IMG/VR virus record: IMGVR_UViG_2881966637_000002
Location: 1 to 64,000 of that record
DNA: 64,000 nt
Source of the DNA: a virus
Taxonomy: Duplodnaviria > Caudoviricetes
Strand: one strand, 5' to 3'
The translations under genes were made by a program, and so were the position numbers. A model generated the notes under the pieces. It worked only from the letters and a program-made list of their open reading frames with translations, did no database searches and had not been told where the DNA came from. Positions 3,479 through 21,047 of this stretch are shown one piece after another; positions within the stretch are counted from its first letter, which is position 1; the number at the start of each line of letters is the position of its first letter.

Positions 3479-4051
3479 TTATTGACGTTTAAAGATTAGA
3501 ACTCGTACGGTCGTTCCGGTTGCGTTCACCACTAGACTGGACAGCGGGGTTAGTTTGTTGCTGGACAAATCAAGCTCGGTACTAAATAGCCGCTGTTCGC
3601 CGGGATTCAGCGTGTACACAAACCCACCATAGGTCAGTGTCGCCGTTTGCCCACCCAAGTTTTCCGTTATGTACTTGAAAGCCCCGGTCGCCGGCACGGT
3701 ATTACCGCTGGTGGTGTAATCCACCGTCGCGTTGAGTACCGAGCCAACCGTGGTAAAGTTGCCTATCGTGGTTCGCCAGCTATTGAGCGCGTCGGCATAG
3801 GTCAGGCCGTAGGGCTGGCCGTCGCGGTTCAAAAACGTGTCGTAGGTCGCGTAGCGCACCGGCTCACCCGACACCGTGAGTGTTGCGGTACCGGGGTAGA
3901 GTACGACGCTTACATCCCTGGCGTCGCGGAACCGGACAAACGTACCCTGGGCGTCGCCAATCGCGTATTGAGAACCAACCGGATAGATCCGGAACTGGGC
4001 CAAGGCTCCCTGTGTACCCAGCAGGAGCAGAATGAGAATCTTGATTTGCAT
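3479..4051 (-). CDS. Secreted beta-rich hypothetical protein
   Basis: Signal peptide MQIKILILLLLGTQGALA|Q. Start overlaps the upstream stop. Confidence 0.7.
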   Translation of the reverse strand: MQIKILILLLLGTQGALAQFRIYPVGSQYAIGDAQGTFVRFRDARDVSVVLYPGTATLTVSGEPVRYATYDTFLNRDGQPYGLTYADALNSWRTTIGNFTTVGSVLNATVDYTTSGNTVPATGAFKYITENLGGQTATLTYGGFVYTLNPGEQRLFSTELDLSSNKLTPLSSLVVNATGTTVRVLIFKRQ

Positions 4052-4941
4052 CAGTACGTTTGTTTAGCCATCATTAACGAATCAAAATGGTACGTTGAGT
4101 CCAGGTACGATGTGGGCCGAACGGGCGGCAGGCTGCTGGGTAGCTTAAACTCCTTCCGCGCCGGGGGCTGTATCTTGGGAATAGGGGTTTGCAGCCGCTC
4201 ACGGACGCTTTTTTCTATCGCGTTCAACGCCCGCATCGTGGCCTTCGTCCGGCTCAGCTCCTGGCTGTTGCGGGCTTTGTTCGCCTGCTCCAGTTGCCGC
4301 AGCACGAGCTGCATTTCCTGTTTCTGCACCAGTAGCTGCTCCAGAAACAAACTGTCCTGGTGGCGTTTCAACGCCAGAGCAGCCAGTTTCGCCGTGCTGT
4401 CCTGCACCACGGCCTGCCGGGTCGCGGCTATCGAAATGGTTTGTTTCGTTTCAATCTTGTTGACGTTGCTGTACAGTACGCCGGTCGCAAAAATCAGGGC
4501 GATTACACCCAGCACCCACTTCTGCCACCGCTCCATTTGCGCCGTGAATAGCGCAACTTCCCGCCAGGGAATGACCTGGTTCTCGACCGATAACACTTGC
4601 TCAATCGTGGTGTCGTACTGAGTCCGTAGCTGATATAAGTACCGCAGGTACAGACTGGCCCGGCTCCAGACCGTCCAGGCCCAAGCCGTGTACAGAATCG
4701 GCCGGTTCACGTCGGCCCAGCTCGGATGCCGGGTCGTGGCCGTGATCACGTCGATGTATATCTGCATGACGACGCCCAGCAGCAGCAGCACGAACGCTCC
4801 CCTGTACACACGCCCTTTGTGCATGGAGAAGAAAAAGTTGATCACCAGGCCGGGGGCAGCAACCGCCAGGGCCAGGGTTTCCCACCAGTCGAAAATGACC
4901 TGCGCCAGTTCGGGGAAAGCGTTATACGTTGTTGGTTCCAT
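4051..4941 (-). CDS. Multi-TM membrane protein with C-terminal coiled coil (lysis-cassette associated)
   Basis: About 4 hydrophobic segments followed by a Q/L-rich coiled coil. Probable ATG at 4941 (MEPTT); the ORF track extends to 4998. Confidence 0.6.
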   Translation of the reverse strand: MEPTTYNAFPELAQVIFDWWETLALAVAAPGLVINFFFSMHKGRVYRGAFVLLLLGVVMQIYIDVITATTRHPSWADVNRPILYTAWAWTVWSRASLYLRYLYQLRTQYDTTIEQVLSVENQVIPWREVALFTAQMERWQKWVLGVIALIFATGVLYSNVNKIETKQTISIAATRQAVVQDSTAKLAALALKRHQDSLFLEQLLVQKQEMQLVLRQLEQANKARNSQELSRTKATMRALNAIEKSVRERLQTPIPKIQPPARKEFKLPSSLPPVRPTSYLDSTYHFDSLMMAKQTY

Positions 4942-5317
4942 CGTTACCGGGTTTACTAATATTGCGCCACTTGCTATACGCCTGGGCCAATGTGTCAAAC
5001 AGGTTCAGTGCCTGATCCGGGTTTCCCTTTATCCTGGTCAGAATAGCCGCGACCACGCTCATAATAGCCCAGCCTGCGAAGCTGACAATGGCATAGACCG
5101 ATTCAACCGGCCAGTCTGGCATCCACTTGCGCTGCACGGTGGCAGCGGCATAGTGGCTAACAAAAAAGCTGACGGCGATCTGCGAGAAACCACCCCGCCA
5201 GCCGGTTGGCGGGAAAAAAATCAGGGCGATAGACCCCCCGATGAGTTTGGCGAAAAACTGCCCGACTTCGGGTGGCATCCCGGCAAACAAGCCGAAAAAG
5301 TATTGCCAGAAACTCAT
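4922..5317 (-). CDS. Putative holin
   Basis: 131 aa, 2-3 TM segments, polar C-terminus, between the spanin-like pair and the endolysin. Confidence 0.6.
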   Translation of the reverse strand: MSFWQYFFGLFAGMPPEVGQFFAKLIGGSIALIFFPPTGWRGGFSQIAVSFFVSHYAAATVQRKWMPDWPVESVYAIVSFAGWAIMSVVAAILTRIKGNPDQALNLFDTLAQAYSKWRNISKPGNDGTNNV

Positions 5318-5342
5318 AGGGTTGGTTGATGGGGTATTGCGC

Positions 5343-5666
5343 TCAATGCGCCGAATAGCTTTCGACTCGTTTCAAGACCTTTTCCACTTTCCGTCGCTTG
5401 CACCAGCCCTTCATCGCGCTCCTGACGTCGGTGACGAACGAGTCGAAATAAGCCTGGCGCGTGACCAGCGAGTCGTAGCGGGGTCTGATCCGGCTCAACT
5501 CAGCGAGTTGCCGGTAGATTTCTTCCTCGCGCTGCCGGGGCGTTAGCGTTGTGGCGGTAGGCGCGGTTGACTGAGAGTAAACTGTCAATGGCATTGTGCA
5601 GCACAGCACTATCCAGACGAGTAGCGGCCAGCGAGTCGGCCAGTGAGTTTTTTTTCTCGGTTTCAT
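5343..5666 (-). CDS. o-spanin-like (Rz1-position) exported protein
   Basis: Starts inside the upstream gene in the +1 frame (ATG 5666). Basic N-region plus hydrophobic core. Weak lipobox VLCC or SPI site VYS|Q. Confidence 0.5.
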   Translation of the reverse strand: MKPRKKTHWPTRWPLLVWIVLCCTMPLTVYSQSTAPTATTLTPRQREEEIYRQLAELSRIRPRYDSLVTRQAYFDSFVTDVRSAMKGWCKRRKVEKVLKRVESYSAH

Positions 5667-5925
5667 GGTTGGCTTCAACTTTAGTAGTGGCGGTTCGGAT
5701 CGTCTCGAACTGGGTCTGTGACAGAGCCAGTAGCGAGTCGTGCCGGGGTTGCAGGTAGTCCAGTTGATTCTGCTTGCGGCCGCTGACGTAGAGCGACAGA
5801 ATCAGCCCCACCAGCAGCAGCAGCACCAGAATAAACGGGTTGCGGTATACATACAGAAAGCCGTCTCGCAGGACTGCGCCCGCTTTGGTGACAATAGGTT
5901 TTAGAAAGGCGATAAACATACGCAA
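5500..5925 (-). CDS. i-spanin-like (Rz-position) protein
   Basis: Single N-terminal TM (FILVLLLLVGLILSLYV) plus helical periplasmic region. Overlaps the downstream gene in Rz/Rz1 fashion. Confidence 0.55.
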   Translation of the reverse strand: MRMFIAFLKPIVTKAGAVLRDGFLYVYRNPFILVLLLLVGLILSLYVSGRKQNQLDYLQPRHDSLLALSQTQFETIRTATTKVEANHETEKKNSLADSLAATRLDSAVLHNAIDSLLSVNRAYRHNANAPAARGRNLPATR

Positions 5926-5944: not shown

Positions 5945-6427
5945 TTAACTTATTTCGAGCACGGCTTCTTTGGTCTGGATGGACGTGCTGGTGGACAGCG
6001 ACACGAACTGAGCCGTTACCCGCAGCGTCTGGGCCGTTGTGGTATCCACCGTCCAGTCCGCGTCGGCCGTAATGCAACTGGTGTTGTACTGACCAACGAC
6101 GCTGACGTACTGAGCACTCATGCTGTTCACGTTGCTGATCCGCACATCGAGTACCAGCGGTTTGCTACCACTGGCCAGCAGGGCTACGGCCGTGAACACG
6201 GTTAAGCTACTGCTACCCAGATACACCTTTATCGTGACGGCCGGGGGCAACAGACCCGTGGTTAGCCGACCCACGTAATGCAGGGCCAGCGTTTTCTCCA
6301 GGCCCAACTTGCCGGCCGGGATGGAAGCCGAGAAAAGATCGGTTTCAGCCGTTGAGTTGCTGATGGCCGAGACAACATCCACACTGGACATGGACATGCC
6401 TCGGCTGGTTTCTCTGCGATTTGGCAT
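5945..6427 (-). CDS. Beta-rich tail-fibre-associated hypothetical protein
   Basis: S/T/V-rich 160 aa, coupled to the upstream tailspike gene. Confidence 0.5.
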   Translation of the reverse strand: MPNRRETSRGMSMSSVDVVSAISNSTAETDLFSASIPAGKLGLEKTLALHYVGRLTTGLLPPAVTIKVYLGSSSLTVFTAVALLASGSKPLVLDVRISNVNSMSAQYVSVVGQYNTSCITADADWTVDTTTAQTLRVTAQFVSLSTSTSIQTKEAVLEIS

Positions 6428-8577
6428 TAGATAATCGTTAAGGTACCTCTGTTGGCGACAATAGAAAACTCGTTAGCGGCAATCTTCTCCACTACCACGG
6501 TGTCGTACCGGGACTGTGACTGAACGTAGCCACCGGTCCCCGTCGTGGTGTCGGACGCGCCGTGAATGACCTGACCTGCGTTCTGCGCCAGCCGCCAGCC
6601 GCCCGTTCCCATGCCCCGGATAGATACCTGTTCCCCAACCTGAATAGCAGAGTCAGCGGGTAGTGTTATGGTAATTAGCGACGAGCTGTTGGCTACGTAT
6701 TTTGTGTTGGGGCTTCCCGTGGCTGAGCTTGTTAAAACAACAACAGGCGTCACGACAGCGACCTTATTTCCTTTGGTTTTCAGACTATCCTGCCCGGCCT
6801 CCAAGATTGGCAACGTGGTAGAGGAGTCGTAGATTAAGGTACCTGTGGGTGTAGTAGAGGTAAACGTTAGGGCTGAGACAGGTGTTGCCTGTGTGGTTTT
6901 TACGTAAAAAACCCCAACCTCCATAAAGCTGTCAACAACAATATAAAGTGTTGTGGATGCGTCAGCGTTTCTGTAAGCGACCACCTTTCCGGGAGACGAA
7001 TTGTCGCCCTGACAAACCGCGCTGGCTATAAACGCATCGCGTTGACCTACGTTAAGGGTCAACACCTTTTTGGCGTTACTCGAATAGCCCCCCAGTGACA
7101 CGATCAACAAACTGCCATCATAGCTGGCCCCAGACGACCCTGGTAGCGAGAGGATCGGGGCGTACTGCACACCAGAAGCAGCCGTTACGGCGGACAGCTT
7201 TAGGTCAGACGTACCTAACGCGCCAATATTGGTTCTGGCCTGCGCCTTCTGTCCGCTTGATAAGGACTGACTGGCTCCGTAGGAAACCAGATTTGTGCCG
7301 TCACCGTTGGGCAAAATGTCGGGCAACGCTTGTCGTTTCTGCACATTGCCAAACACCTTATGGTTTGTAACCGAAGCGGTTAAGTTATGTGCTCGGGTAT
7401 AAGGCAAATTGAGACTGGGGAATGAATCAATAATGTTGTCGGTGGACAAGAAGCCGTTTACGTTGTTGGCGTAGATAGCATCCCCTTTTGTTTTAAGTAT
7501 GTTGTCGGTTATAAAAACGTTTTCAAGCGTACCGCCATCGCCGTTAAGGGCAATGTTTACGTTGGTTGGATTAGTCGAATAATCAACGATCTGGTTTTGC
7601 GAAATCAGCACGTCATAAAACTGACTACCGGCCCCCATTTGTAAAATGATTCCGTAAGACGTGTAAGACTCAATACTGTTTTGCTGAATAAACAAATCAA
7701 CGGTTTGCGCCCCAGGAGCTAAACTCATATTGAAGGCAACGCCATTTTCCACGCCGTCAAGGGGCAGGAATTTATTCTTGTACACCATTAATCCACCCGA
7801 TGACTTATAAAAAATAGACGCCAGGCTGTTGCCACGGAACTTGTTCTTTTCTATAATGCTATCCCCGCCGTCCGGGTGTGGCTGATTTTCCACCCACACA
7901 CCGTACTGCCCAGCCAGAAACCGATTGTTTTTGATGGTTTGAAACGCGGCATTGTGCAGGTGAATGCTTTGCTGGCAGTTCAGAAAAAAGCAGTTGTCGA
8001 TAATTGAGTAGCTGTTGCCGCCCGTCACGTACAAGCCTCCTGTGTTGAGCCCGTACGTGGGTGGCGACACCATAAAGACATCGCGCAGACAGGTCTGATT
8101 CAGGGTGTCGATCACAAAACAGTACGCGTCGTCCTCGGCTAGTGCAAAGATGCTTCGATTGCTGTCACCAAAAATAGTCAGACTGTTATTGATCAGTACA
8201 TTGGCAACCCGTATGTCTGGTCCACTTGGCACGTATAGGCTTCGGCCCGTGGCGATACAGTAATTGACCGCTTTCTGAACCTGGCTTGTCGCGTTTTGGC
8301 CTGACGGCACTTTCACATAATCGCGCAGATTTACGGCACGATCTACACGGGCTCGCCAGGCCCCGCCCCCTTTGCCTGGCGCAGCTACGGTCAATACGCC
8401 ATCTGCTCCACTACCCGTTGGGTCGTAGTCAAATGAACGCCCCGCAGCTATAGTAGCCCGGTTTTTTAAGCCCTGATAAGCCTCCAGTGCTGTTTCATCC
8501 AGAATAAAATCCTGCTTCCCTTTAGCTACTTTAGCCAGCTCCCGAAAACCAGCGGACACTCGTGTTTCAAGGCTCAT
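6427..8577 (-). CDS. Tailspike / receptor-binding protein with beta-helix depolymerase-like domain
   Basis: VNLRDY...NATSQVQKAVN...SLYVPSG beta-helix start, NN/GN ladder repeats, QKAQARTNIGA motif and C-terminal ITLPA...GGWRLAQNAGQ fibre domain. More AT-rich than neighbours. Confidence 0.8.
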   Translation of the reverse strand: MSLETRVSAGFRELAKVAKGKQDFILDETALEAYQGLKNRATIAAGRSFDYDPTGSGADGVLTVAAPGKGGGAWRARVDRAVNLRDYVKVPSGQNATSQVQKAVNYCIATGRSLYVPSGPDIRVANVLINNSLTIFGDSNRSIFALAEDDAYCFVIDTLNQTCLRDVFMVSPPTYGLNTGGLYVTGGNSYSIIDNCFFLNCQQSIHLHNAAFQTIKNNRFLAGQYGVWVENQPHPDGGDSIIEKNKFRGNSLASIFYKSSGGLMVYKNKFLPLDGVENGVAFNMSLAPGAQTVDLFIQQNSIESYTSYGIILQMGAGSQFYDVLISQNQIVDYSTNPTNVNIALNGDGGTLENVFITDNILKTKGDAIYANNVNGFLSTDNIIDSFPSLNLPYTRAHNLTASVTNHKVFGNVQKRQALPDILPNGDGTNLVSYGASQSLSSGQKAQARTNIGALGTSDLKLSAVTAASGVQYAPILSLPGSSGASYDGSLLIVSLGGYSSNAKKVLTLNVGQRDAFIASAVCQGDNSSPGKVVAYRNADASTTLYIVVDSFMEVGVFYVKTTQATPVSALTFTSTTPTGTLIYDSSTTLPILEAGQDSLKTKGNKVAVVTPVVVLTSSATGSPNTKYVANSSSLITITLPADSAIQVGEQVSIRGMGTGGWRLAQNAGQVIHGASDTTTGTGGYVQSQSRYDTVVVEKIAANEFSIVANRGTLTII

Positions 8578-9239
8578 TACGCTGCGAGTTCAGTGTTGAT
8601 AATAGCGACAAAATCTGTATCGGGGTTGCCGATTTCCGTACTCCCGTACTTGGCGTTCCAAGTTGCTTTTTCTAAAGCGGTTGTGTACAGGTTGACAACA
8701 CCCTGCGGTACGGCATCCGACGAACCGGGGCTGGGTGAAATCTCGGTGTACGAACTGCCGCCCCACCGCCACGCTTTGTTGGTGTCCAGCGCGACGTAAA
8801 TCTTACTGTTGGAGCCGGTAGCCGGAAATTCAGCCAGGCTGTTACGCTCTATCACTTCGTCCACGAACGACGGAAGCTGGGCGGACGGCACCTTGCCGGT
8901 GCTGTCCAGCGACGCGACGCCGTTAATCGCGCCTTTCTGCGCCTGAATCTGGTTGGCAACCGCATCGGCAAAGTCGATGATGGTACTGGCGGACTGCGTA
9001 CCGGTGTGGGTGGACCGGTTGCGGTACTGCTCAATTTTACTGCTGGAATACGTCGAGCTGCTGGACGACGCGTTGTCGTTGATGCCCACGGCATTGGCTA
9101 TCGACTGCTTGACCTCGTTGATCGCAGCGACCAGATTGGTTTTGTTGGTCGTGGCCAGGTCGCTCAACTTACCGGTCCTTGCGATAATCTCTTGGGCAAT
9201 GCGTCGAAACGCGGCACTTAGTCGTTGTTCTAAAGTCAT
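8577..9239 (-). CDS. Tail fibre adaptor protein
   Basis: Common fibre motifs LATTNKTNLVAAINEV, HTGTQSASTI and GVASLDSTGKVPSAQLPSFVDEV...FPATG..KIYVA.DTNK.WRWGGS.Y. Confidence 0.75.
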   Translation of the reverse strand: MTLEQRLSAAFRRIAQEIIARTGKLSDLATTNKTNLVAAINEVKQSIANAVGINDNASSSSSTYSSSKIEQYRNRSTHTGTQSASTIIDFADAVANQIQAQKGAINGVASLDSTGKVPSAQLPSFVDEVIERNSLAEFPATGSNSKIYVALDTNKAWRWGGSSYTEISPSPGSSDAVPQGVVNLYTTALEKATWNAKYGSTEIGNPDTDFVAIINTELAA

Positions 9240-9258
9240 GGCGGTTGTTGTGTAATAC

Positions 9259-9582
9259 TTACTTGCTCAATTCGTTTTCAAAAATTTCGATGTAGTCAAC
9301 GTCTTGTATCGGGTTGTTGCTGATCGTGCCCAGCGACGTCCAGACACTGGCGGTGGTGACCCGGTATTGCAACTCGTCTCCCTGCCGGCGCAGCTCGATA
9401 CCCGAGAGATTCGGGGCTTGATACGACGGGTAGCCGGTGACAGGGGGCGGGCTGGTCGGGCCGCAGCCGCAGGAGCTGGGTGGGGTGAGGTGAACGGTGT
9501 CACCCAACCCCTCTATCCCTAGCCCTTGTAACTGCTCGGGCGACAACTGCCCTAGTAACTCATACGGATTGTAGCAACTCAT
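9259..9582 (-). CDS. Small structural/adaptor protein
   Basis: 107 aa with SCGCG, Pro linker, IELRRQGDELQYR..W..L motif and C-terminal DVDYIEIFENEL. Confidence 0.55.
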   Translation of the reverse strand: MSCYNPYELLGQLSPEQLQGLGIEGLGDTVHLTPPSSCGCGPTSPPPVTGYPSYQAPNLSGIELRRQGDELQYRVTTASVWTSLGTISNNPIQDVDYIEIFENELSK

Positions 9583-12500
9583 GCGTTCTGGTTGGGGTTA
9601 ATGCCGGCCGGTGGCGCGACGTTAGCTGTATTGATCCACTCGACCCGCCAAAGCTCGCCAGCCGGAGCCGGGTCGTCCTGCCGCTCGGTGCCGAAGTCGA
9701 TGTAGCGTTGGAAGCTGACTTTGTTGACCACGCCCCGCCACTCACCGTTACCCGACAGCGGAACCTCAATCGTGCGCATCTGACCGTCGCTGTTGACCGG
9801 GAACTCGACAAAAATGGGCAGGCCGTAGGGCGACATGTCGTGCCGCCAGAACAGGAGCCTGAACTTGTTCAGTGGACCGGCGTACGCCATGCGGATAAAC
9901 ACGCTGCCGATACTCGACGCCGGCAAGCTCAGCCGCTGGGACGAGATACTGGCCTGCTTAAGCGTAGGTACAATGGTCCAGCCCGATTGCGGGAAAGGTA
10001 CCCCGCCGTCCGTTGCTTTGTTGCGAATCCAGCGGCCTCGGTCCAGGCTATAGGCGAAGTTCGTGGCCAGTGTACGCGGCCAGTTCTGCTCCATTGCGTA
10101 CTGACGCATTTCATCGACGTGCCCGGTCAGGATATGGTACTCGTTGTACAGCACCTGGTTCCAGTCGATGTGAAGCTGCGGTTGCCACGCGACGTACGGG
10201 CTGGCTTCGGCAAACTCGCCGTCACCGCAGTCCGGGCACTGGCGTTTACGCGTCACCTCGTACAAACCTGGACCGGCGACGCCCACGCCCCGGTTGTTGT
10301 TGTTGACCCTGGCAATCCAGGGCTCAGTGATCGCAAACGGGATCTGCTCACTCTGCGAGTTGGTCCTTGTAATCGGCTGGTTGGCGTAGGGCTGACCGCC
10401 TTCGTAATAGACCGCGTGCTGAAATTCTTCGTTGGCGTAGACGCACGGCATTTCCTGGCCGTACGCGTCGTAGATGCCCTTGTCGTCGGTCCGGTTGTTG
10501 ATCATGCGCTCATACACCCGACAGGCTGCTTTGCCCGGCACCAGCACGAACCAGCGTTCGAGAATAACGTCCGTCACCTCGTTGCGCACCGGCCAGTTGA
10601 CCAGTTGCGATTTGATGTAGAGCCGGTTCTCGTCCCAGGCCACGGCCAGAATAGGCGACGGGTTCCAGAACGCGTCACCGGCTGTAATCGGGTCGTTCCC
10701 CGTACCCCCGCCTTCGGGGTCGAGTTTACCCAGTGGCGTTGCCCAGAAGCTGAACTCGGCGTTGGGGTTGGGGCTGGTGCGGCCACCCCGGTAATACGCC
10801 GACTGCAACTGACGACCGCCGTTGTCAGCGTTGTTCACAATGTTTTTGGTTGGCTCCGGCCCTTTGAGGTCGTAGACCTCGCAGACCGCACCCCCGCTCC
10901 GCTCCCAGAACCCGACCATGATAAAGCCGTTGCTGATCCGGATCTTGCGGCCGACGATCCCACCAATCCGCTCGTAAGGCCGGGTGTCGGTGATCGGCCA
11001 CACGTTCTGGTTCGTGGTTAAAATCGGGTAGTCAAAATTGGTTGTGACCGGGGGCGGTGCGTAGGTCGGTGTCCCGGTGCCCGTGCCGCTGTTGCCGCCC
11101 GTCGAACCCGTACCCGTTCCGGTACTCGTCGCGGTAGGTGTCGGCGTACCCGTGCCGCTGGTCACGCTCATTGCCGCCCAGAGCCGATCTGCTATCGTCT
11201 GATGGACGGGATCAGTGGGGTGGTTGGCGTAGCCATCGGTAGACCCCGGTATGCCCGAGAGGTCGATCACCGGCAAACTGAGATCGTTGGCCACGCTCCG
11301 GATCATGTTACTGACCTGTACCTGCGCTGGCGTCAGAGACTCCCAGAGCGAGGTGGTGAGGAACACAGCGGCATTGGGCCGCGACTGGCGCAGCTTGTTG
11401 ATAAACGCTTTGTACCAGCCCGTGAAGTCCTGGCTGAGATTGGTAACGTTTTCCGCAAGCCGAATTACGATGGCGTCGGCTCCGAAAGCCGTAGCCGGGT
11501 TATAGCGTTCCAGCCCACCCTGTAACTGCCAGTAGTTGCCCTCAAAGTAACTACCGTCGTTAATGGTCAGGGGCGGGAAATCGCCTAACTGACACACCTG
11601 TACATTCGGGTTTTTGGACCGCAGGTAGTTGGTTAGAATGTGTACGTAATCCTTGTTAGCCGCGCTGGCGTCCATGCCCCAGGCTTTGGTACCCCCACCC
11701 CAGTCCGGTATCGCCGGATGGTTCGTGATGGAGTTGCCCACGATCAGTACTTTGTTGTACACGCCGTTACCTACCGGCAACGTGCCGGTGGCCATGTCGG
11801 GGTTGAACGCACCGAAGTACGTCCATTCAAACGCTTGCCCAGGGGTCACGAATCCATTCTCCCGGTCGTTGACCAGCTCGAAGCGTGAAATGATCCCGGA
11901 CCAGTTCGGGTTCGAGCGCATGTTGATTTCGTACGTATGGAACTGATTGTCGGGAATCAGGTTGAACCACACGATCTGGGTAGCGTACTGCCGGATGCCC
12001 AGTGGGTACTGCGTGAGACTGCCCGCGTTGTTGGGATCGAAGCCGGACGCTTTCTGCCCTACTTTCAAAAATTCAATGCCCATCTTCGTGGGGCCACCCG
12101 CGTATTTGGTACGAATGAACAGCGTGTCGAAGTCAGCCGCCCGCCACGACCCAAACGGGCTGTGCAGGGCCGTAGTCGAGGCATGGGTAACGGTGTTGCC
12201 GGCGATGGTTTCCGTTTTGCCCACATAGGTCGGTTTCCAGTTGTCGGTGGTGAAGGGTTCTTTCTGGTCCTGAACCCCGTCCAGCCCCACCCAACCGGCT
12301 CTCGATTTTACGAACGAGAAGTCGGGCAGCGGTGTGCGGGGCAGGGCGTAGGCTGCGGCCCTGATCTCCGACTCCGAACCATAGATATAGTCGTAACTGT
12401 AGTAAAAGGTCTGGTTCGGATCCAGGTGCGACATGGGCCGACCGCCTATGTACATGAACCGGTCCGAGTTCTCGGCACTCGCTTCGTTCACATCCAGGTT

Positions 12501-13889
12501 GGTAAAGTTGACGTTGGCGTTGTACATATCCACCGACACCATACCCAGCATTTTCCCTTCCGGCAGCTCGACAGCGGCCCAGGGCTCGGACAGCGGGAAT
12601 GAACTCATCGTCCAGCCAACGCCGTTGGTGGACGTGGCGGGCGCATTGGTAAATGGCTGTTGTCCGTTGTAGAATTTGGCAACGGTCGCCGGCCAGATCA
12701 TGCTGAAGGGCGTTTCCTGTTCTCTGGCCTCGTACAGCGTCGCGTCGCGCAGCGAGCCGGCTTCCACCGTGTCACGAAAATGGGTCAGCCTCAGTTTGAC
12801 CCGGATGCGGTTGCCGTCGATCTTCACCCACCGTTCCACGAACAGCGGCATGAGTAACGTGTTGTTGTGCGGCCAGGAAATGAATCGGGTCTTGGTATAC
12901 AGCCAGCCGGTGCTGGTGATACCTTTGGCCACGACCGGACCGGACTGGTTGTTTACCGAACCGGCCAATGGGTTGTAGCCGATAGACGACCAGGTGTTAC
13001 CCTGGTCAGCGGCAAAATTGAGTGGGCCGGCGTAAGGGCAAGCTCCTTCCAGCCGGCCCTGATCGCGCATGTTGATCGTGGACAACCACTGGCCGTTGAC
13101 ACGGCGGTATATCTGCATGGCCGAACCAAAGCCTTCCCGCAGCTCGATCCGCAGATCACCGGACTCCTGACGCAGTATGCCGCGCACCGGAATGCCGTAG
13201 GGCTGCATGACCTGGGTGCTGTTCTCGGTCCAGTTGCCGTTTACCGTTTCGTACACAAAGGCTGGCGAGCCCGACCCGGTACCCGTCGCCGTCGCGGTAG
13301 CCGTGCCGGTGCCACTTGTGCCCGTAGATGTGCCAGCCGTAGCGTTGCCACTGCCCGGTATGTACGGCCCGAAGATCGTGGTCAGGTTCGCCCGGCGCGG
13401 AGCGAGTAGCAGCGTCGCGGTTTCGACCGGAGCGTTGTTAACGAACCGGGCAATGGTGATCTCCAGCGTTTCGGTACCGATCCCGGAACCAGCCTCACCC
13501 GTCGCCCGGTAGCTCCACTCCTGCTTGAAGTCCCCCCTGGATCTAGGACCGGGCGGGTAGTAGCTGTTGGGACTGAGCACCTGCCCACCCGACGAGCGCA
13601 TGAGCAGGTTGATGTTGTCCTGCCGGCGTATTTTGACGCGGATGTCCACCGTGCCTTCGGGCGCGATTTCCAGATCCATCGACCGGGCACTGGTATAGGT
13701 CATTTGCAACCCTTTCAGCCAGGGGAACGGGCTGGGGATAAATGACGAGGTACTGACCCCGGCGTTGTTAGCCGATTTACGGGCTGCGGCCTGCTCCTTA
13801 CTTTCGTTCGGGAGCAGGGTGATTACGACGTTGGTTGGATCATCCACCGATGCGTCGGCATTCGTATTAAGCCACTGGTAACGTGCCAT
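9579..13889 (-). CDS. Large modular protein: two homologous beta-sandwich domains flanking an SGNH/GDSL hydrolase, joined by Thr/Gly linkers
   Basis: SGNH blocks VLIVGNSITNH..WGMDAS..DYVH, RLAEN and HPTD (~11170-11750). Internal paralogous domains (ERW...R.D...Y.A..QE.P ; EPW.A) at ~11800-13150 and ~9630-10940. Confidence 0.8.
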   Translation of the reverse strand: MARYQWLNTNADASVDDPTNVVITLLPNESKEQAAARKSANNAGVSTSSFIPSPFPWLKGLQMTYTSARSMDLEIAPEGTVDIRVKIRRQDNINLLMRSSGGQVLSPNSYYPPGPRSRGDFKQEWSYRATGEAGSGIGTETLEITIARFVNNAPVETATLLLAPRRANLTTIFGPYIPGSGNATAGTSTGTSGTGTATATATGTGSGSPAFVYETVNGNWTENSTQVMQPYGIPVRGILRQESGDLRIELREGFGSAMQIYRRVNGQWLSTINMRDQGRLEGACPYAGPLNFAADQGNTWSSIGYNPLAGSVNNQSGPVVAKGITSTGWLYTKTRFISWPHNNTLLMPLFVERWVKIDGNRIRVKLRLTHFRDTVEAGSLRDATLYEAREQETPFSMIWPATVAKFYNGQQPFTNAPATSTNGVGWTMSSFPLSEPWAAVELPEGKMLGMVSVDMYNANVNFTNLDVNEASAENSDRFMYIGGRPMSHLDPNQTFYYSYDYIYGSESEIRAAAYALPRTPLPDFSFVKSRAGWVGLDGVQDQKEPFTTDNWKPTYVGKTETIAGNTVTHASTTALHSPFGSWRAADFDTLFIRTKYAGGPTKMGIEFLKVGQKASGFDPNNAGSLTQYPLGIRQYATQIVWFNLIPDNQFHTYEINMRSNPNWSGIISRFELVNDRENGFVTPGQAFEWTYFGAFNPDMATGTLPVGNGVYNKVLIVGNSITNHPAIPDWGGGTKAWGMDASAANKDYVHILTNYLRSKNPNVQVCQLGDFPPLTINDGSYFEGNYWQLQGGLERYNPATAFGADAIVIRLAENVTNLSQDFTGWYKAFINKLRQSRPNAAVFLTTSLWESLTPAQVQVSNMIRSVANDLSLPVIDLSGIPGSTDGYANHPTDPVHQTIADRLWAAMSVTSGTGTPTPTATSTGTGTGSTGGNSGTGTGTPTYAPPPVTTNFDYPILTTNQNVWPITDTRPYERIGGIVGRKIRISNGFIMVGFWERSGGAVCEVYDLKGPEPTKNIVNNADNGGRQLQSAYYRGGRTSPNPNAEFSFWATPLGKLDPEGGGTGNDPITAGDAFWNPSPILAVAWDENRLYIKSQLVNWPVRNEVTDVILERWFVLVPGKAACRVYERMINNRTDDKGIYDAYGQEMPCVYANEEFQHAVYYEGGQPYANQPITRTNSQSEQIPFAITEPWIARVNNNNRGVGVAGPGLYEVTRKRQCPDCGDGEFAEASPYVAWQPQLHIDWNQVLYNEYHILTGHVDEMRQYAMEQNWPRTLATNFAYSLDRGRWIRNKATDGGVPFPQSGWTIVPTLKQASISSQRLSLPASSIGSVFIRMAYAGPLNKFRLLFWRHDMSPYGLPIFVEFPVNSDGQMRTIEVPLSGNGEWRGVVNKVSFQRYIDFGTERQDDPAPAGELWRVEWINTANVAPPAGINPNQNA

Positions 13890-18615: not shown

Positions 18616-18945
18616 TCAATGTGCCAGGACCGTCGCGGTCAGGTACAGATTTTCGTGCGTGTTGTCGTCGTAAAATACCGTGACCGCTTTGGTCGTGGTG
18701 AACTGGGTAGCCCCTTGCTGCCGGTGGTATTCGGGCAGGCTGGGTGGAGCCGCGTAGTCCACGTAGATCCCATTCTGGTCGAAGAATGCCGTTGTACAAC
18801 TACAATCGGCACTCACCGTCCGGATCGCGGGTCCGGCTTCGATCCGGGTAAAAATGCCCCGTCTTATTTCCCGCAGATGCACTTTGCCTATGTCTACGGT
18901 CTGCGGCCCGAAATAACTGACCTGGGGGGGTGGTTGGGTTATCAT
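18616..18945 (-). CDS. DUF1573-like Ig-fold protein
   Basis: DIGKV...IRTVSADCSCTT (CxCT motif) and terminal L.L.ATV, as in Bacteroidota DUF1573 domains. Confidence 0.6.
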   Translation of the reverse strand: MITQPPPQVSYFGPQTVDIGKVHLREIRRGIFTRIEAGPAIRTVSADCSCTTAFFDQNGIYVDYAAPPSLPEYHRQQGATQFTTTKAVTVFYDDNTHENLYLTATVLAH

Positions 18946-21047
18946 GCGTATTGCCTGGTGTTGTTGGTATACGAGTTTCTATACCCCGGTAAGCGGATAA
19001 ACTCGTCGGCGTCCGGCGTCCGGGTATACGAATCGGGTTGGTCGGTATACCGGCCGAGCTGGATATATTCGCTGTAGCCGGCCAAGAGCTGTTCGCTTTC
19101 CTGTTCGGTAAACGAACGGTCCTTCGTGGCGTGTAGCAGGTAGAGTAAGCAGTGGAAGGCCGAGCCGATGTCGTCATTCTCCCCCGAGCCCCAGAGCAGC
19201 AGGCTTTCCAGCAGCGGCACCAGCGTGATGTGGTGATGGCGGTTGCTGGCTAAGTACTGATAGCCCAGAGCGGTGAGCTCGGTCTTGACCCCACCCTTCA
19301 CCTCGATACCGGGTGTATGGTCATTGATCCACCACAGCCGGTGCGACTGGTTCCGGTCGCGCAGCCAGTCGGGAAACGCGTCGGTGTTGTATTCGTAAAT
19401 GGTTTGCTGCACGTCGTAGAGCAGCATCCCTTTGTAAAACTCGTGGTAGGTCGCCTGCATGTCGGGCAGTTTGTCGTAGTACAGGGCGACGGGCATATCG
19501 TTGTTATCACCCAGCAACAGCGTCGGTTGCCGGTAGATGATCATGCAGTTGCGCGAGTCCCGCTTTTTAAGTTTTTGACCCGGCTTGGCTTTTTTGTACA
19601 CGTCGTCAATCGCGCCGACGTGCAGGTTCGGAATTTTGTGGTTGGGTAAACCCGCCTGGTTGATCCGCCAAGGGCCGCGAAGCTTCTCCGGCGTACCGGG
19701 GGCGTCGGGAATGAACTCCACCTTTTTGTTATCAGACCCCCGGATGTACTCAATTTTGCCGCTCATCCACAACTGATCGAAACCGTGGGACGTCACGTAG
19801 CCGATCTGCGACTTGATCTTAAGCTGATCATAGGCAAAGGAGGCCGAGGGCTCGAACGCTTCCTGCGGGGTCAGCGGGTTCTCGACCAGTTCTTTGGCAT
19901 ACTTCTCGCCCGACCCCTCACTTTGTTTGCGCAGGGCCATGATATGCGCCAGTGCGTCGTCCACCCGACTACGACCGGTACGTTCATCAATGAACCCTAA
20001 CAACGCTTTGGTTTTGGGCGTGAAGTGGCTTTTCGCCTTATAGGCTTCGGGGTTGAAAAAGATCGTTTTGTAGTTGGAGGATTTGTTGATTACGGCGTTG
20101 GACGTGCCGCCAATCACCATCATACCCCATTTAAGGTCACCACCTTCCAGACAGTCCTTGTTCTCGACGTAGAAGTTATCCAGGCTATCCCCGGTCCAGA
20201 GCCCGGCTTCCACCGCCGTCAGCTTGGTTAGTCGCATCGACTTGAACACGCCGGCACTGGCCTCGTTGGGCACGAGCCGATACTGTATCCAGTTGTGAAC
20301 GATGTAGGACGAACGGCCCGTGAAATAGCCCACGGCAAAGTCGTCCTGATTCTCGACCACGACTTCTAAAGCCCGCCCGTTCCAGGTTTTGAAAAACGGG
20401 TGGATGTGCTCGGTATACAGTGTTTTGAACCAGCCGCGTTCGGCCAGTTTCGGCTTCTCGGTGGGGTAGCCTCTACCAATGTAGCGTTCCCGACCGGCCA
20501 TGAAAATGAAGTGGTAGCTGTCCACGCCCAGAAATTCCATCTGCGTATAGCCGATGGTCCGGGGTTTGGCAAACACCGAGTTCTTCGCGTTGATACTGGC
20601 CCCGCCCGCCAAATCGCGGTAGCGGTTGCGCCACATCATCGACATGATCTCGTCGTCGTTGTCCCGGTAGAACGGCGCGTCCCAGCCCGTTATTTCTTTG
20701 GTCTGGTTATCCTGACGCGGGATCTTGACGAAGTTCAGGTACCAGTAGTGGTAGCCGCAGATGTATTTGCCGGTTACGGGCTCGGTCCACCCTTTCTTGA
20801 TCCGGGTCAACTGCTCTTTCCACCAGGCCCACGACTTGTCGCCCCTGGTCTTGGGCGCGTCGGGAATACGCTGTTGCAGGACCGGCCGGTAGAGGATCTG
20901 CACCGACTCGTGCAGGTGACTGATCTCGGGCGACGGGGTGCCGGCGTCAAGGGTCTGGACAGGGACCGGGGTATGAAGCGTCGAAGCCGACACCGCCAGG
21001 GCGGTAGCGGCTACCAATGCTTTTTTAACAAATCCCTTTTTGTCCAC
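18942..21047 (-). CDS. terL: Terminase large subunit
   Basis: WKEQ..R...G....G.YI.G.HYWYLNF N-terminal motif, Walker A-like FAKPRTIGYT, Walker B LTAVEAG, IGGTS, ENPLTPQEAF, and RNase H-like HVGAIDD ... YEYN ... ENDD. Matches crAss-like/flavobacterial TerL. Confidence 0.88.
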   Translation of the reverse strand: MDKKGFVKKALVAATALAVSASTLHTPVPVQTLDAGTPSPEISHLHESVQILYRPVLQQRIPDAPKTRGDKSWAWWKEQLTRIKKGWTEPVTGKYICGYHYWYLNFVKIPRQDNQTKEITGWDAPFYRDNDDEIMSMMWRNRYRDLAGGASINAKNSVFAKPRTIGYTQMEFLGVDSYHFIFMAGRERYIGRGYPTEKPKLAERGWFKTLYTEHIHPFFKTWNGRALEVVVENQDDFAVGYFTGRSSYIVHNWIQYRLVPNEASAGVFKSMRLTKLTAVEAGLWTGDSLDNFYVENKDCLEGGDLKWGMMVIGGTSNAVINKSSNYKTIFFNPEAYKAKSHFTPKTKALLGFIDERTGRSRVDDALAHIMALRKQSEGSGEKYAKELVENPLTPQEAFEPSASFAYDQLKIKSQIGYVTSHGFDQLWMSGKIEYIRGSDNKKVEFIPDAPGTPEKLRGPWRINQAGLPNHKIPNLHVGAIDDVYKKAKPGQKLKKRDSRNCMIIYRQPTLLLGDNNDMPVALYYDKLPDMQATYHEFYKGMLLYDVQQTIYEYNTDAFPDWLRDRNQSHRLWWINDHTPGIEVKGGVKTELTALGYQYLASNRHHHITLVPLLESLLLWGSGENDDIGSAFHCLLYLLHATKDRSFTEQESEQLLAGYSEYIQLGRYTDQPDSYTRTPDADEFIRLPGYRNSYTNNTRQYA

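What the first reader, a model, noticed from the sequence alone, without database searches (positions are those of the whole stretch)
6427..9582. Head-to-tail docking peptides suggest a daisy-chain fibre assembly code
Seen: three consecutive genes show matched ends. The 107-aa protein ends QDVDYIEIFENELSK and the 220-aa protein ends PDTDFVAIINTELAA (shared D-x-D-[FY]-x-x-I-x-x-x-E-L, acidic amphipathic). The gene after each begins MTLEQRLSAAFRRIAQEI or MSLETRVSAGFRELAKVA (shared M-[ST]-L-E-x-R-x-S-A-x-F-R, basic amphipathic). The last member, the tailspike, has no C-terminal motif. Inference: each C-peptide binds the N-peptide of the next gene product, like PKS docking domains, giving plug-in receptor-binding modules.
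Basis: partly seen in the sequence, partly recalled or inferred. Interest (0 to 1): 0.7.

Follow-up and report, generated by a model that had tools for sequence, protein, structure and literature searches.

The report
Matched end peptides chaining phage fibre proteins
Three neighbouring prophage genes (small anchor, 220-aa rod, tailspike) carry matching short helices at their ends, and the same pairing across gene boundaries recurs in many unrelated phages, so the helices probably clip the fibre pieces together end to end, though binding itself could not be tested here.

Summary
In this 7.4-Mb genome both motifs occur only at these two gene junctions.

The three genes are a local copy of a widespread cassette:
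- an anchor ending in a C-peptide;
- a ~165-aa coiled-coil extender carrying both an N-peptide and a C-peptide (here 220 aa);
- a tip starting with an N-peptide (here a beta-helix tailspike).

Gene-order coupling is very strong:
- 33 of 34 genes sampled only by their C-peptide are followed by an N-peptide gene; 0 of 7 chance internal matches are.
- 78 of 80 genes sampled only by their N-peptide are preceded by a C-peptide gene.

Anchors and tips fall into about 22 unrelated families each and share only the peptides. Two peptide classes always pair like with like: Y..K with Asp17, and F..L with Glu17 or another residue. Rare natural fusions place the two peptides next to each other.

A junction-specific "code" is not supported: both junctions of a cassette use the same class. 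One prophage lineage has an extender N-peptide with no C-peptide partner.

I found no Pfam family, solved structure or paper for these peptides. Earlier notes of this scan report analogous plug-and-socket joints, with other motifs, on other phage DNA.

The parts
9259..9582 (-). 107-aa 'anchor' protein: a unique body ending in a C-peptide
   Evidence: ORF. No Pfam or PHROG match. No relative among 5.8 billion proteins by word-based search. Its start overlaps the stop of the 1436-aa gene (ATGA).
9262..9306 (-). C-peptide of the anchor (QDVDYIEIFENELSK; core DYIEIFENEL, F..L class)
   Evidence: Matrix score 4.2, within the top 0.15% of ORF ends in the genome.
8577..9239 (-). 220-aa 'extender': coiled-coil fibre protein with an N-peptide and a C-peptide, plus an inserted fibre-motif segment (about residues 97-185)
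   Evidence: Aligns over both ends with ~165-aa homologues (A1 and A2). Partial match to phrog_4757, E 3.6e-9. The AF2 monomer is mostly helical.
9174..9239 (-). N-peptide of the extender (residues 1-22, MTLEQRLSAAFRRIAQEIIART; Glu17 class)
   Evidence: Matrix score 33, the best in the genome. Predicted helix 3-21, pLDDT about 90. Heptad-like hydrophobic spacing at positions 3, 7, 10, 14, 18, 21.
8580..8633 (-). C-peptide of the extender (IGNPDTDFVAIINTELAA)
   Evidence: Matrix score 22, the best in the genome. Predicted helix 210-219, pLDDT about 91.
6427..8577 (-). 716-aa 'tip': right-handed beta-helix tailspike with an N-peptide and no C-peptide
   Evidence: Pfam Beta_helix PF13229, E 6e-12, and NosD PF05048, E 2e-7, both above their cut-offs. 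C-end is ...NRGTLTII.
8512..8577 (-). N-peptide of the tailspike (residues 1-22, MSLETRVSAGFRELAKVAKGKQ), a divergent member
   Evidence: Residues 1-9 fit the consensus MSLxTR[IV]xA and the later part deviates. Matrix score 3.0, rank 8 of 15,596 ORF starts.

Best explanation
The three genes encode one jointed, trimeric receptor-binding fibre built from separate proteins in gene order.

Proposed parts:
- A small anchor (107 aa).
- A coiled-coil extender (220 aa).
- A beta-helix tailspike tip (716 aa).

Proposed joint:
- Each joint forms between the last ~12-17 residues of one protein and the first ~21 residues of the next.
- The C-peptide is an N-capped amphipathic helix with core D-[FLY]-[VL]-x-x-[FY]-x-x-x-[LK], ending 1-3 residues before the C-terminus.
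- The N-peptide follows M-[ST]-L-x-x-R-[IL]-x-x-L-x-x-x-[IV]-[GA]-x-[DE]-[IVF]-K-x-L, a three-heptad coiled-coil helix.
- The likely form is three C-helices packing on a three-stranded N-terminal coiled coil.

What this allows: because the N-peptide is a self-contained tag, any receptor-binding body carrying it can be mounted on the same anchor or extender. That would explain why tips are swapped just downstream of it.

Shown here: the motifs, their strictly terminal position, the gene-order coupling, class matching, portability and predicted helicity.

Inferred: that the two peptides touch each other, the 3+3 stoichiometry, and the order of assembly.
For: 1. Uniqueness in the host genome.

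2. Gene-order coupling in independent samples.
- Loci found through the extender: the next gene starts with an N-peptide in 56 of 64 non-redundant cases, at the 99.9th percentile of the background.
- Loci found only by a DNA pattern for the C-peptide: 33 of 34 terminal occurrences are followed by an N-peptide gene, against 0 of 7 chance internal matches.
- Loci found only by a DNA pattern for the N-peptide: 78 of 80 genes are preceded by a gene ending in a C-type peptide, 60 by the strict matrix and 18 by variant forms.

3. Only the peptides are shared.
- 42 anchor bodies fall into 23 unrelated clusters.
- 99 tip bodies fall into 22 clusters.
- 109 extender bodies form one family.
- In an alignment of tip N-termini, conservation stops at about residue 22.

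4. Class matching.
- C-core positions 6/10 = Y/K go with N position 17 = Asp. F/L go with Glu or another residue.
- Junction pairs: 41 versus 64, with 0 mismatches.
- Second sample: 32 versus 44, with 2 exceptions that keep the Tyr.
- Within 115 diverse extenders: 52 D/K and 51 E/L, none crossed.
- On a tree of the extender body the class switches about 6 times, at least 2 of them forced by well-supported branches.
- One tip family occurs with both classes, each time matching its upstream partner.

5. Trimer context. 21 of 54 anchors have three or more Gly-X-Y collagen repeats just before the C-peptide. The N-peptide has coiled-coil heptads and weakly resembles designed coiled coils and viral HR1.

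6. Natural fusions ('Rosetta stone').
- P0381 and P0328 continue from an internal C-peptide through a 5-8-residue linker into an N-peptide-like heptad helix.
- P0250 fuses the extender to a tip body and drops the N-peptide.

7. The same triplet is present in cultured phages of different morphotypes and hosts:
- Pseudomonas PMBT3 gp030-032;
- Caulobacter CcrBL9 gp128-130;
- Sinorhizobium phiM7 gp76-74.

8. Precedent for a joint of three C-terminal helices with an N-terminal trimer: the Pa193 tape-measure C-terminus with the tail-tip N-terminus (PMC11456595).
Against: - No interaction was computed or measured.
- A C-peptide and the following N-peptide lie within about 60 bp of each other, so linkage alone could produce part of the class matching.
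- Both ends of one extender, about 450 bp apart, are also always of the same class. The class therefore behaves as a whole-cassette property and does not single out the junction.
- In the terminase-adjacent prophage lineage (Ralstonia, Pseudomonas, Stenotrophomonas) the extender's N-peptide has no C-peptide-ended partner gene upstream. None exists anywhere in one 48.7-kb provirus that is 82% complete. N-peptides can therefore exist, and presumably attach, without a C-peptide.
- The tailspike's own N-peptide is divergent after residue 9.
- If the joints are universal, nothing found here explains why the extender would not self-polymerise.
Confidence: 0.6

Rival explanations
1. The two peptides are independent end-caps of trimeric fibre modules. 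The N-terminal coiled coil and the C-terminal short helix bundle would nucleate or register trimer folding, much as the foldon does for T4 fibritin. The proteins would attach to each other, or to the virion, through other surfaces. Adjacency would then reflect only the habit of encoding fibre parts side by side.
For: - The C-core resembles internal helix motifs of the same fibres (TNLVAAINEL, DANFATTxxxAL).
- Both ends of one extender share the class.
- The terminase-adjacent lineage has an N-peptide without a C-peptide partner.
- The 40-residue C-fragment is confidently helical on its own.
Against: - It does not explain why unrelated tips need the same 21-residue tag only when they follow a C-peptide gene (78 of 80).
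- It does not explain why unrelated anchors share nothing but the C-peptide.
- It does not explain why a covalent fusion can drop the N-peptide (P0250).
- It does not explain why classes never mix across a junction.
Confidence: 0.2
2. The N-peptide is a general anchor that binds a third partner, such as a baseplate, collar or head protein or some other part of the preceding protein. The C-peptide is unrelated to that contact.
For: - Phage receptor-binding proteins commonly attach by N-terminal anchors (general statement in PMC12143355).
- The extender in the terminase-adjacent lineage must attach to something that lacks a C-peptide.
Against: - No conserved fourth gene accompanies the cassette.
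- The cassette sits in very different genomic places: after the lysis genes, after the terminase, next to capsid genes, next to sheath genes.
- The only element common to all preceding proteins is the C-peptide.
Confidence: 0.12
3. The conserved junction is a DNA-level recombination linker. It would be kept because it lets fibre modules be exchanged by homologous recombination, and the peptides would have no protein function.
For: Tip bodies are exchanged immediately downstream of the N-peptide, as expected if crossovers occur there.
Against: - The two junctions in the window share no DNA repeat and use different codons for the shared residues.
- Conservation follows an amphipathic or heptad pattern across phages whose DNA is unrelated, with hosts in Bacteroidota, Proteobacteria and Actinobacteria.
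- Spacers between stop and start vary from -4 to more than 40 nt.
Confidence: 0.05

Closest known systems
Phage T4 long tail fibre (gp34-gp35-gp36-gp37)
   Same: Consecutive genes encode separate proteins that join end to end, non-covalently, into one jointed fibre with the receptor binder last (established knowledge).
   Different: No sequence relation: none of the window's proteins gave a Pfam or PHROG match to these T4 families. T4 joints use whole domains and a monomeric knee (gp35). Here the conserved elements are ~12-22-residue terminal helices, and the cassette has only three parts.
Branched receptor-binding-protein systems of Klebsiella and E. coli podophages (KP32/KP34-type, G7C)
   Same: A short conserved N-terminal element lets interchangeable tailspikes dock on another fibre protein, giving a modular RBP architecture (PMC8262889 abstract; otherwise my own knowledge).
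   Different: In those systems the partner is a T4 gp10-like branching domain in the first RBP. No such domain was detected here. The partner proposed here is a C-terminal helix at the very end of the preceding protein, and the geometry is linear rather than branched.
Pa193 tape-measure C-terminus with tail-tip N-terminus (six-helix bundle)
   Same: Three C-terminal helices of one trimer pack with the N-terminal part of another trimer inside a phage tail (PMC11456595). This is the structural model I propose for the joint.
   Different: Different proteins, no sequence similarity tested or expected, and an internal tail location rather than an external fibre.
Polyketide synthase docking domains
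   Same: Short matched C- and N-terminal helices on successive gene products impose the order of a multi-protein assembly.
   Different: Unrelated proteins and context. PKS docking pairs are specific to each junction, whereas here both junctions of a cassette use the same class.
Extender relatives: phrog_4757, and fibre segments in PDB 9d93 (tail collar fibre gp4) and 6v8i (80alpha FibU)
   Same: The middle of the extender shares the LDTLxELAxAL-type coiled-coil segments. The Ralstonia-type extender matches phrog_4757 at E 8e-66 and the window's own extender matches it at 3.6e-9.
   Different: phrog_4757 has no assigned function. The solved chains match only internal segments and contain neither end peptide.

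Membership tests
Anchor-extender-tip cassette defined here (extender about equal to phrog_4757; no Pfam family) | Extender with an N-peptide at residues 1-22 and a C-peptide within 1-3 residues of the C-terminus | tested here: met
   The 220-aa protein scores 33 (N) and 22 (C), the best in the genome. It aligns at both ends with 37 homologues.
Anchor-extender-tip cassette defined here (extender about equal to phrog_4757; no Pfam family) | Preceding gene ends in a C-type peptide and following gene starts with an N-peptide | tested here: met
   The 107-aa C-end is in the top 0.15% and the 716-aa N-end ranks 8 of 15,596. The latter is divergent.
Anchor-extender-tip cassette defined here (extender about equal to phrog_4757; no Pfam family) | Class matching across junctions (F..L with a non-Asp residue at N position 17) | tested here: met
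   Junction 1: F6/L10 with Glu17. Junction 2: I6/L10 with Val17. Read against the table.
Anchor-extender-tip cassette defined here (extender about equal to phrog_4757; no Pfam family) | Physical contact of the C-peptide with the next N-peptide | not testable with these tools
Right-handed beta-helix tailspikes (Pfam PF13229 Beta_helix) | Score above the Pfam gathering cut-off | tested here: met
   716-aa protein: 45.9 bits against a cut-off of 25.9, residues 178-270. Also NosD at 31 bits against 23.6.
T4 long-tail-fibre proteins gp34-gp37 | Sequence homology to the T4 fibre families | tested here: not met
   No such Pfam or PHROG family among the hits of the five proteins.
Branched RBP systems with a T4 gp10-like domain | Presence of a T4 gp10-like branching domain in the upstream fibre protein | tested here: not met
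   No Pfam family at E <= 0.1 in the 107-aa, 220-aa or 1436-aa proteins.
PKS/NRPS docking domains | Location on megasynthase subunits and junction-specific pairing | tested here: not met
   The context is a prophage fibre module, and both junctions use one class.

The most novel reading that the evidence does not exclude
The two peptides form a universal, self-sufficient 3+3 helical snap joint that thousands of phages use, on hosts from at least three bacterial phyla. It comes in two orthogonal specificity classes: Tyr6/Lys10 with Asp17, and Phe6/Leu10 with Glu17. If so, fibre architecture could be read from gene order, the extender would be an optional spacer, and any receptor-binding domain could be mounted on a virion by adding a 21-residue tag.
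Probability: 0.3. Interest if true: 0.75.

Novelty: new variant of a known kind. Interest (0 to 1): 0.62.

Why it matters
Host range of phages is set by their receptor-binding fibres, and much of fibre diversity is still unreadable from sequence.

If these ~12-22-residue end helices are the joints, three things follow:
- A very common and so far unannotated three-gene cassette becomes interpretable. At least 1,825 extender clusters were found at 90% identity, and 728 representatives at E <= 1e-30.
- It would explain why tailspikes are exchanged exactly after residue ~22.
- It would offer a minimal natural tag for plugging new receptor binders onto phages of laboratory strains.

It would also add a helix-on-helix joint to the domain-based joints known from T4 and from the Klebsiella phages.

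Tried and rejected
Nothing was folded.
- HMMER profiles of the short peptides: local alignment truncates them and misses the divergent members. I replaced them with ungapped, terminus-anchored matrices.
- AF2 monomer of the extender. Both end helices have the highest pLDDT, which I thought might mean they pack together.
  - The 40-residue C-fragment alone keeps pLDDT 88.
  - No coordinates are returned.
  - So no inference on N-C contact can be drawn.
- Foldseek of that model against the PDB: nothing with E <= 0.001.
- PDB sequence searches with profiles of the N-peptide region and of the C-peptide region: only insignificant coiled-coil look-alikes.
- DNA repeat search across the two junctions: none.
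- Fused forms in the fetched loci and in 120 longer homologues: none. Three were later found among 385 proteins.
- A second class of joint in the same locus, looked for as a sign of orthogonality: none found.
- Literature searches: no description of these peptides. Only general statements and analogous joints.
- Search for a phiM12 virion proteome: the paper is not in the library.
Full report
**1. What is in the window**

The window lies in contig 1 of a 7.37-Mb, 27-contig genome. One fetched relative is an Arcicella, order Cytophagales.

On the minus strand the genes run in this order:
- a large terminase (18942-21047; phrog_6681, E 8.6e-29);
- 289-aa, 204-aa, 1002-aa and 1436-aa proteins;
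- the three genes of the finding: 107 aa (9259-9582), 220 aa (8577-9239) and 716 aa (6427-8577);
- a 160-aa ORF;
- small ORFs at 4051-5925 that earlier notes of this scan read as lysis genes.

Family matches:
- The 716-aa protein is a right-handed beta-helix tailspike (PF13229, 45.9 bits).
- The 220-aa protein matches fibre families only through its middle, and matches phrog_4757 through its first 105 residues.
- The 107-aa protein matches nothing.

In a word-based search of 5.8 billion proteins the 107-aa protein found only itself.

**2.

- The strict N motif occurs twice in all six frames of the genome, both times here.
- The strict C motif occurs here twice, plus once elsewhere by chance.
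- The two junctions share no DNA repeat and use different codons for the shared residues. The likeness is therefore maintained at the protein level.

**3. It is a local copy of a widespread cassette**

A same-genus genome holds two analogous triplets. An alignment of the three middle proteins retrieved 80 viral contigs.

The ~165-aa 'extender' has these consensus ends:
- N-terminus: MSLxTR[IL]xxLxxx[IV][GA]x[DE][IVF]KxL.
- C-terminus: [IV]G[DN][PT][DE]TDFVAx[FY]xxA[LK], followed by 1-3 residues and the stop.

The family is large and unannotated:
- at least 1,825 clusters at 90% identity, none with a Pfam domain on record;
- 13,509, 3,638 and 728 representatives at E <= 1e-3, 1e-10 and 1e-30 in a library clustered at 50% identity.

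The lower thresholds also collect other fibres through shared coiled-coil motifs.

Cultured carriers include a siphovirus, a jumbo phage and a T4-like myovirus:
- PMBT3 gp030-032;
- CcrBL9 gp128-130;
- phiM7 gp76-74.

There are further hits in Gordonia, Microbacterium and Ralstonia phages.

**4. Gene-order coupling**

I built ungapped matrices from the extenders' own ends. I calibrated them on 15,596 ORFs of the host genome and set thresholds at the 99.9th percentile.

| Sample | Result |
|---|---|
| Loci found through the extender | Next gene starts with an N-peptide in 56 of 64 non-redundant cases |
| Loci found only by a C-peptide DNA pattern (G[DN]P[DE]TDFV): 37 terminal occurrences, 34 evaluable | 33 of 34 followed by an N-peptide gene |
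| Same pattern, 7 chance internal matches in unrelated proteins | 0 of 7 followed by an N-peptide gene |
| Loci found only by an N-peptide DNA pattern: 80 evaluable genes | 78 of 80 preceded by a C-type peptide (60 strict, 18 variants such as DPLAYYILAKG or DLTLLFENGLV) |

Two points qualify these figures:
- In the C-peptide sample, one apparent miss was a start my script mis-scored.
- The N-peptide pattern excludes the Leu14 extenders described in section 8.

Typical chains are anchor-extender-tip. Chains with two extenders are rare.

**5. Only the peptides are shared**

With the peptides trimmed off:
- 42 anchor bodies fall into 23 unrelated clusters;
- 99 tip bodies fall into 22 clusters;
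- 109 extender bodies form a single family.

In an alignment of 39 tip N-termini, conservation ends at about residue 22.

The peptides are always terminal. The C-core ends 1-3 residues before the stop, and the N-peptide starts at residue 2-3.

**6. Two matched classes**

The strongest covariation between the two sides of a junction links C-core positions 10 and 6 with N position 17. K/R10 and Y6 go with Asp17. L10 and F6 go with Glu, or with Lys, Gln, His or Ala.

Counts:
- Junction pairs: 41 and 64, with no mismatch.
- N-sampled set: 32 and 44, with two exceptions that keep Tyr6.
- Within 115 diverse extenders: 52 D/K and 51 E/L, none crossed.

Other evidence on the classes:
- On a tree of the extender body with the ends removed, the class changes about six times. 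At least two changes are forced by well-supported branches. The tree is weak, at 125 columns.
- One tip family (PxGGTxGQVLxK) occurs with both classes, and each time it matches the gene upstream.

Caveats:
- The two peptides of a junction are adjacent in the DNA.
- The class is shared by both ends of an extender. These data therefore cannot separate contact-driven co-evolution from inheritance of whole cassettes.

The window's own junctions are of the F/L class, with Glu17 at junction 1 and Val17 at junction 2.

**7. Structural hints**

- AF2 predicts the N-peptide as helix 3-21 and the C-peptide as helix 210-219, both at about pLDDT 90.
- The N-peptide has a 3-4 hydrophobic spacing (positions 3, 7, 10, 14, 18, 21, plus 11). 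Its only PDB look-alikes, all insignificant, are designed coiled coils and a viral HR1.
- The C-peptide begins with a T-D helix cap and has one hydrophobic face.
- 21 of 54 anchors carry a collagen-like Gly-X-Y tract just before the C-peptide, which implies trimers.
- A 3+3 helical bundle is therefore the natural model. A precedent exists inside the Pa193 tail (PMC11456595).
- No solved structure contains either peptide.

**8. Fusions and exceptions**

Among 385 family members three are natural fusions:
- P0381 and P0328 run from an internal C-peptide through a 5-8-residue linker into a degenerate N-peptide-like heptad helix. They then continue into the LxxLxTxxKxxLVxAIN element.
- P0250 goes from the C-peptide straight into a tip body without any N-peptide.

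This is 'Rosetta stone' support for extender-tip association at exactly this point. It also suggests that the N-peptide becomes dispensable once the link is covalent.

The main exception is a beta/gamma-proteobacterial prophage lineage.
- The extender-tip pair follows the large terminase gene (phrog_15, E 4e-269).
- In one 48.7-kb provirus, 82% complete, the extender itself is the only ORF that ends in a C-peptide.
- There the extender's N-peptide must hold on to something else.

**9. Verdict**

- The reading that the end peptides are docking elements joining consecutive gene products is the best explanation. I put it at about 0.6. It rests on comparative evidence only, because the complex predictor was not available for this window.
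- The 'code' part is not supported. I see one joint in two classes, not junction-specific addresses.

I found no description of these peptides in Pfam, PHROGs (phrog_4757 has no assigned function), the PDB or the searched literature.

Earlier notes of this scan describe analogous plug-and-socket joints with other motifs in other phages, and one look-alike pair of N-termini. I did not test those notes.

Noticed in passing
L039:2553-5913 (IMG/VR provirus); also L026-L061 and many of L089-L161: In Ralstonia, Pseudomonas and Stenotrophomonas prophages a two-gene version sits directly after the large terminase gene. It consists of a 163-169-aa extender and a 130-aa tip (phrog_11355). There is no C-peptide anchor anywhere in one 82%-complete provirus.
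   Followed up: partly
Proteins P0381, P0328, P0250: Rare natural fusions of extender and tip. Two keep an N-peptide-like heptad helix 5-8 residues after an internal C-peptide, and one drops it.
   Followed up: partly
window:6427-6500 (-); L073 869-aa ORF; L004 241-aa ORF: The tailspike's C-end (..EKIAANEFSIVANRGTLTII) resembles the C-ends of two otherwise different tips (..EKLAANEWILTQ.., ..RAANEWVITNAVV). This may be a shared tip-terminal element.
   Followed up: no
window:9579-13889 (-): The 1436-aa protein upstream of the anchor gave no Pfam family at E <= 0.1 and no PHROG. It has Thr/Gly-rich linkers that appear as direct DNA repeats at 11064-11167 and 13270-13324.
   Followed up: no
window:5945-6427 (-): A 160-aa ORF whose start overlaps the tailspike stop (ATGA). 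It has no family match apart from an insignificant Band_7_C hit. It could be a fibre accessory or assembly protein.
   Followed up: no
Extender homologues in L003, L010, L047, L067, L085 and others: The C-peptide core resembles two internal helix motifs of the same proteins (K-T-N-L-V-A-A-I-N-E-L and D-A-N-F-A-T-T-x-x-x-A-L). The end helix may have arisen from an internal repeat.
   Followed up: no
Anchor ORFs upstream of extenders, e.g. L008, L145, L153, L162:4761-4982: Many anchors are tiny (55-120 aa) and consist of a few beta-strand-like residues, a short collagen-like Gly-X-Y tract and the C-peptide.
   Followed up: partly
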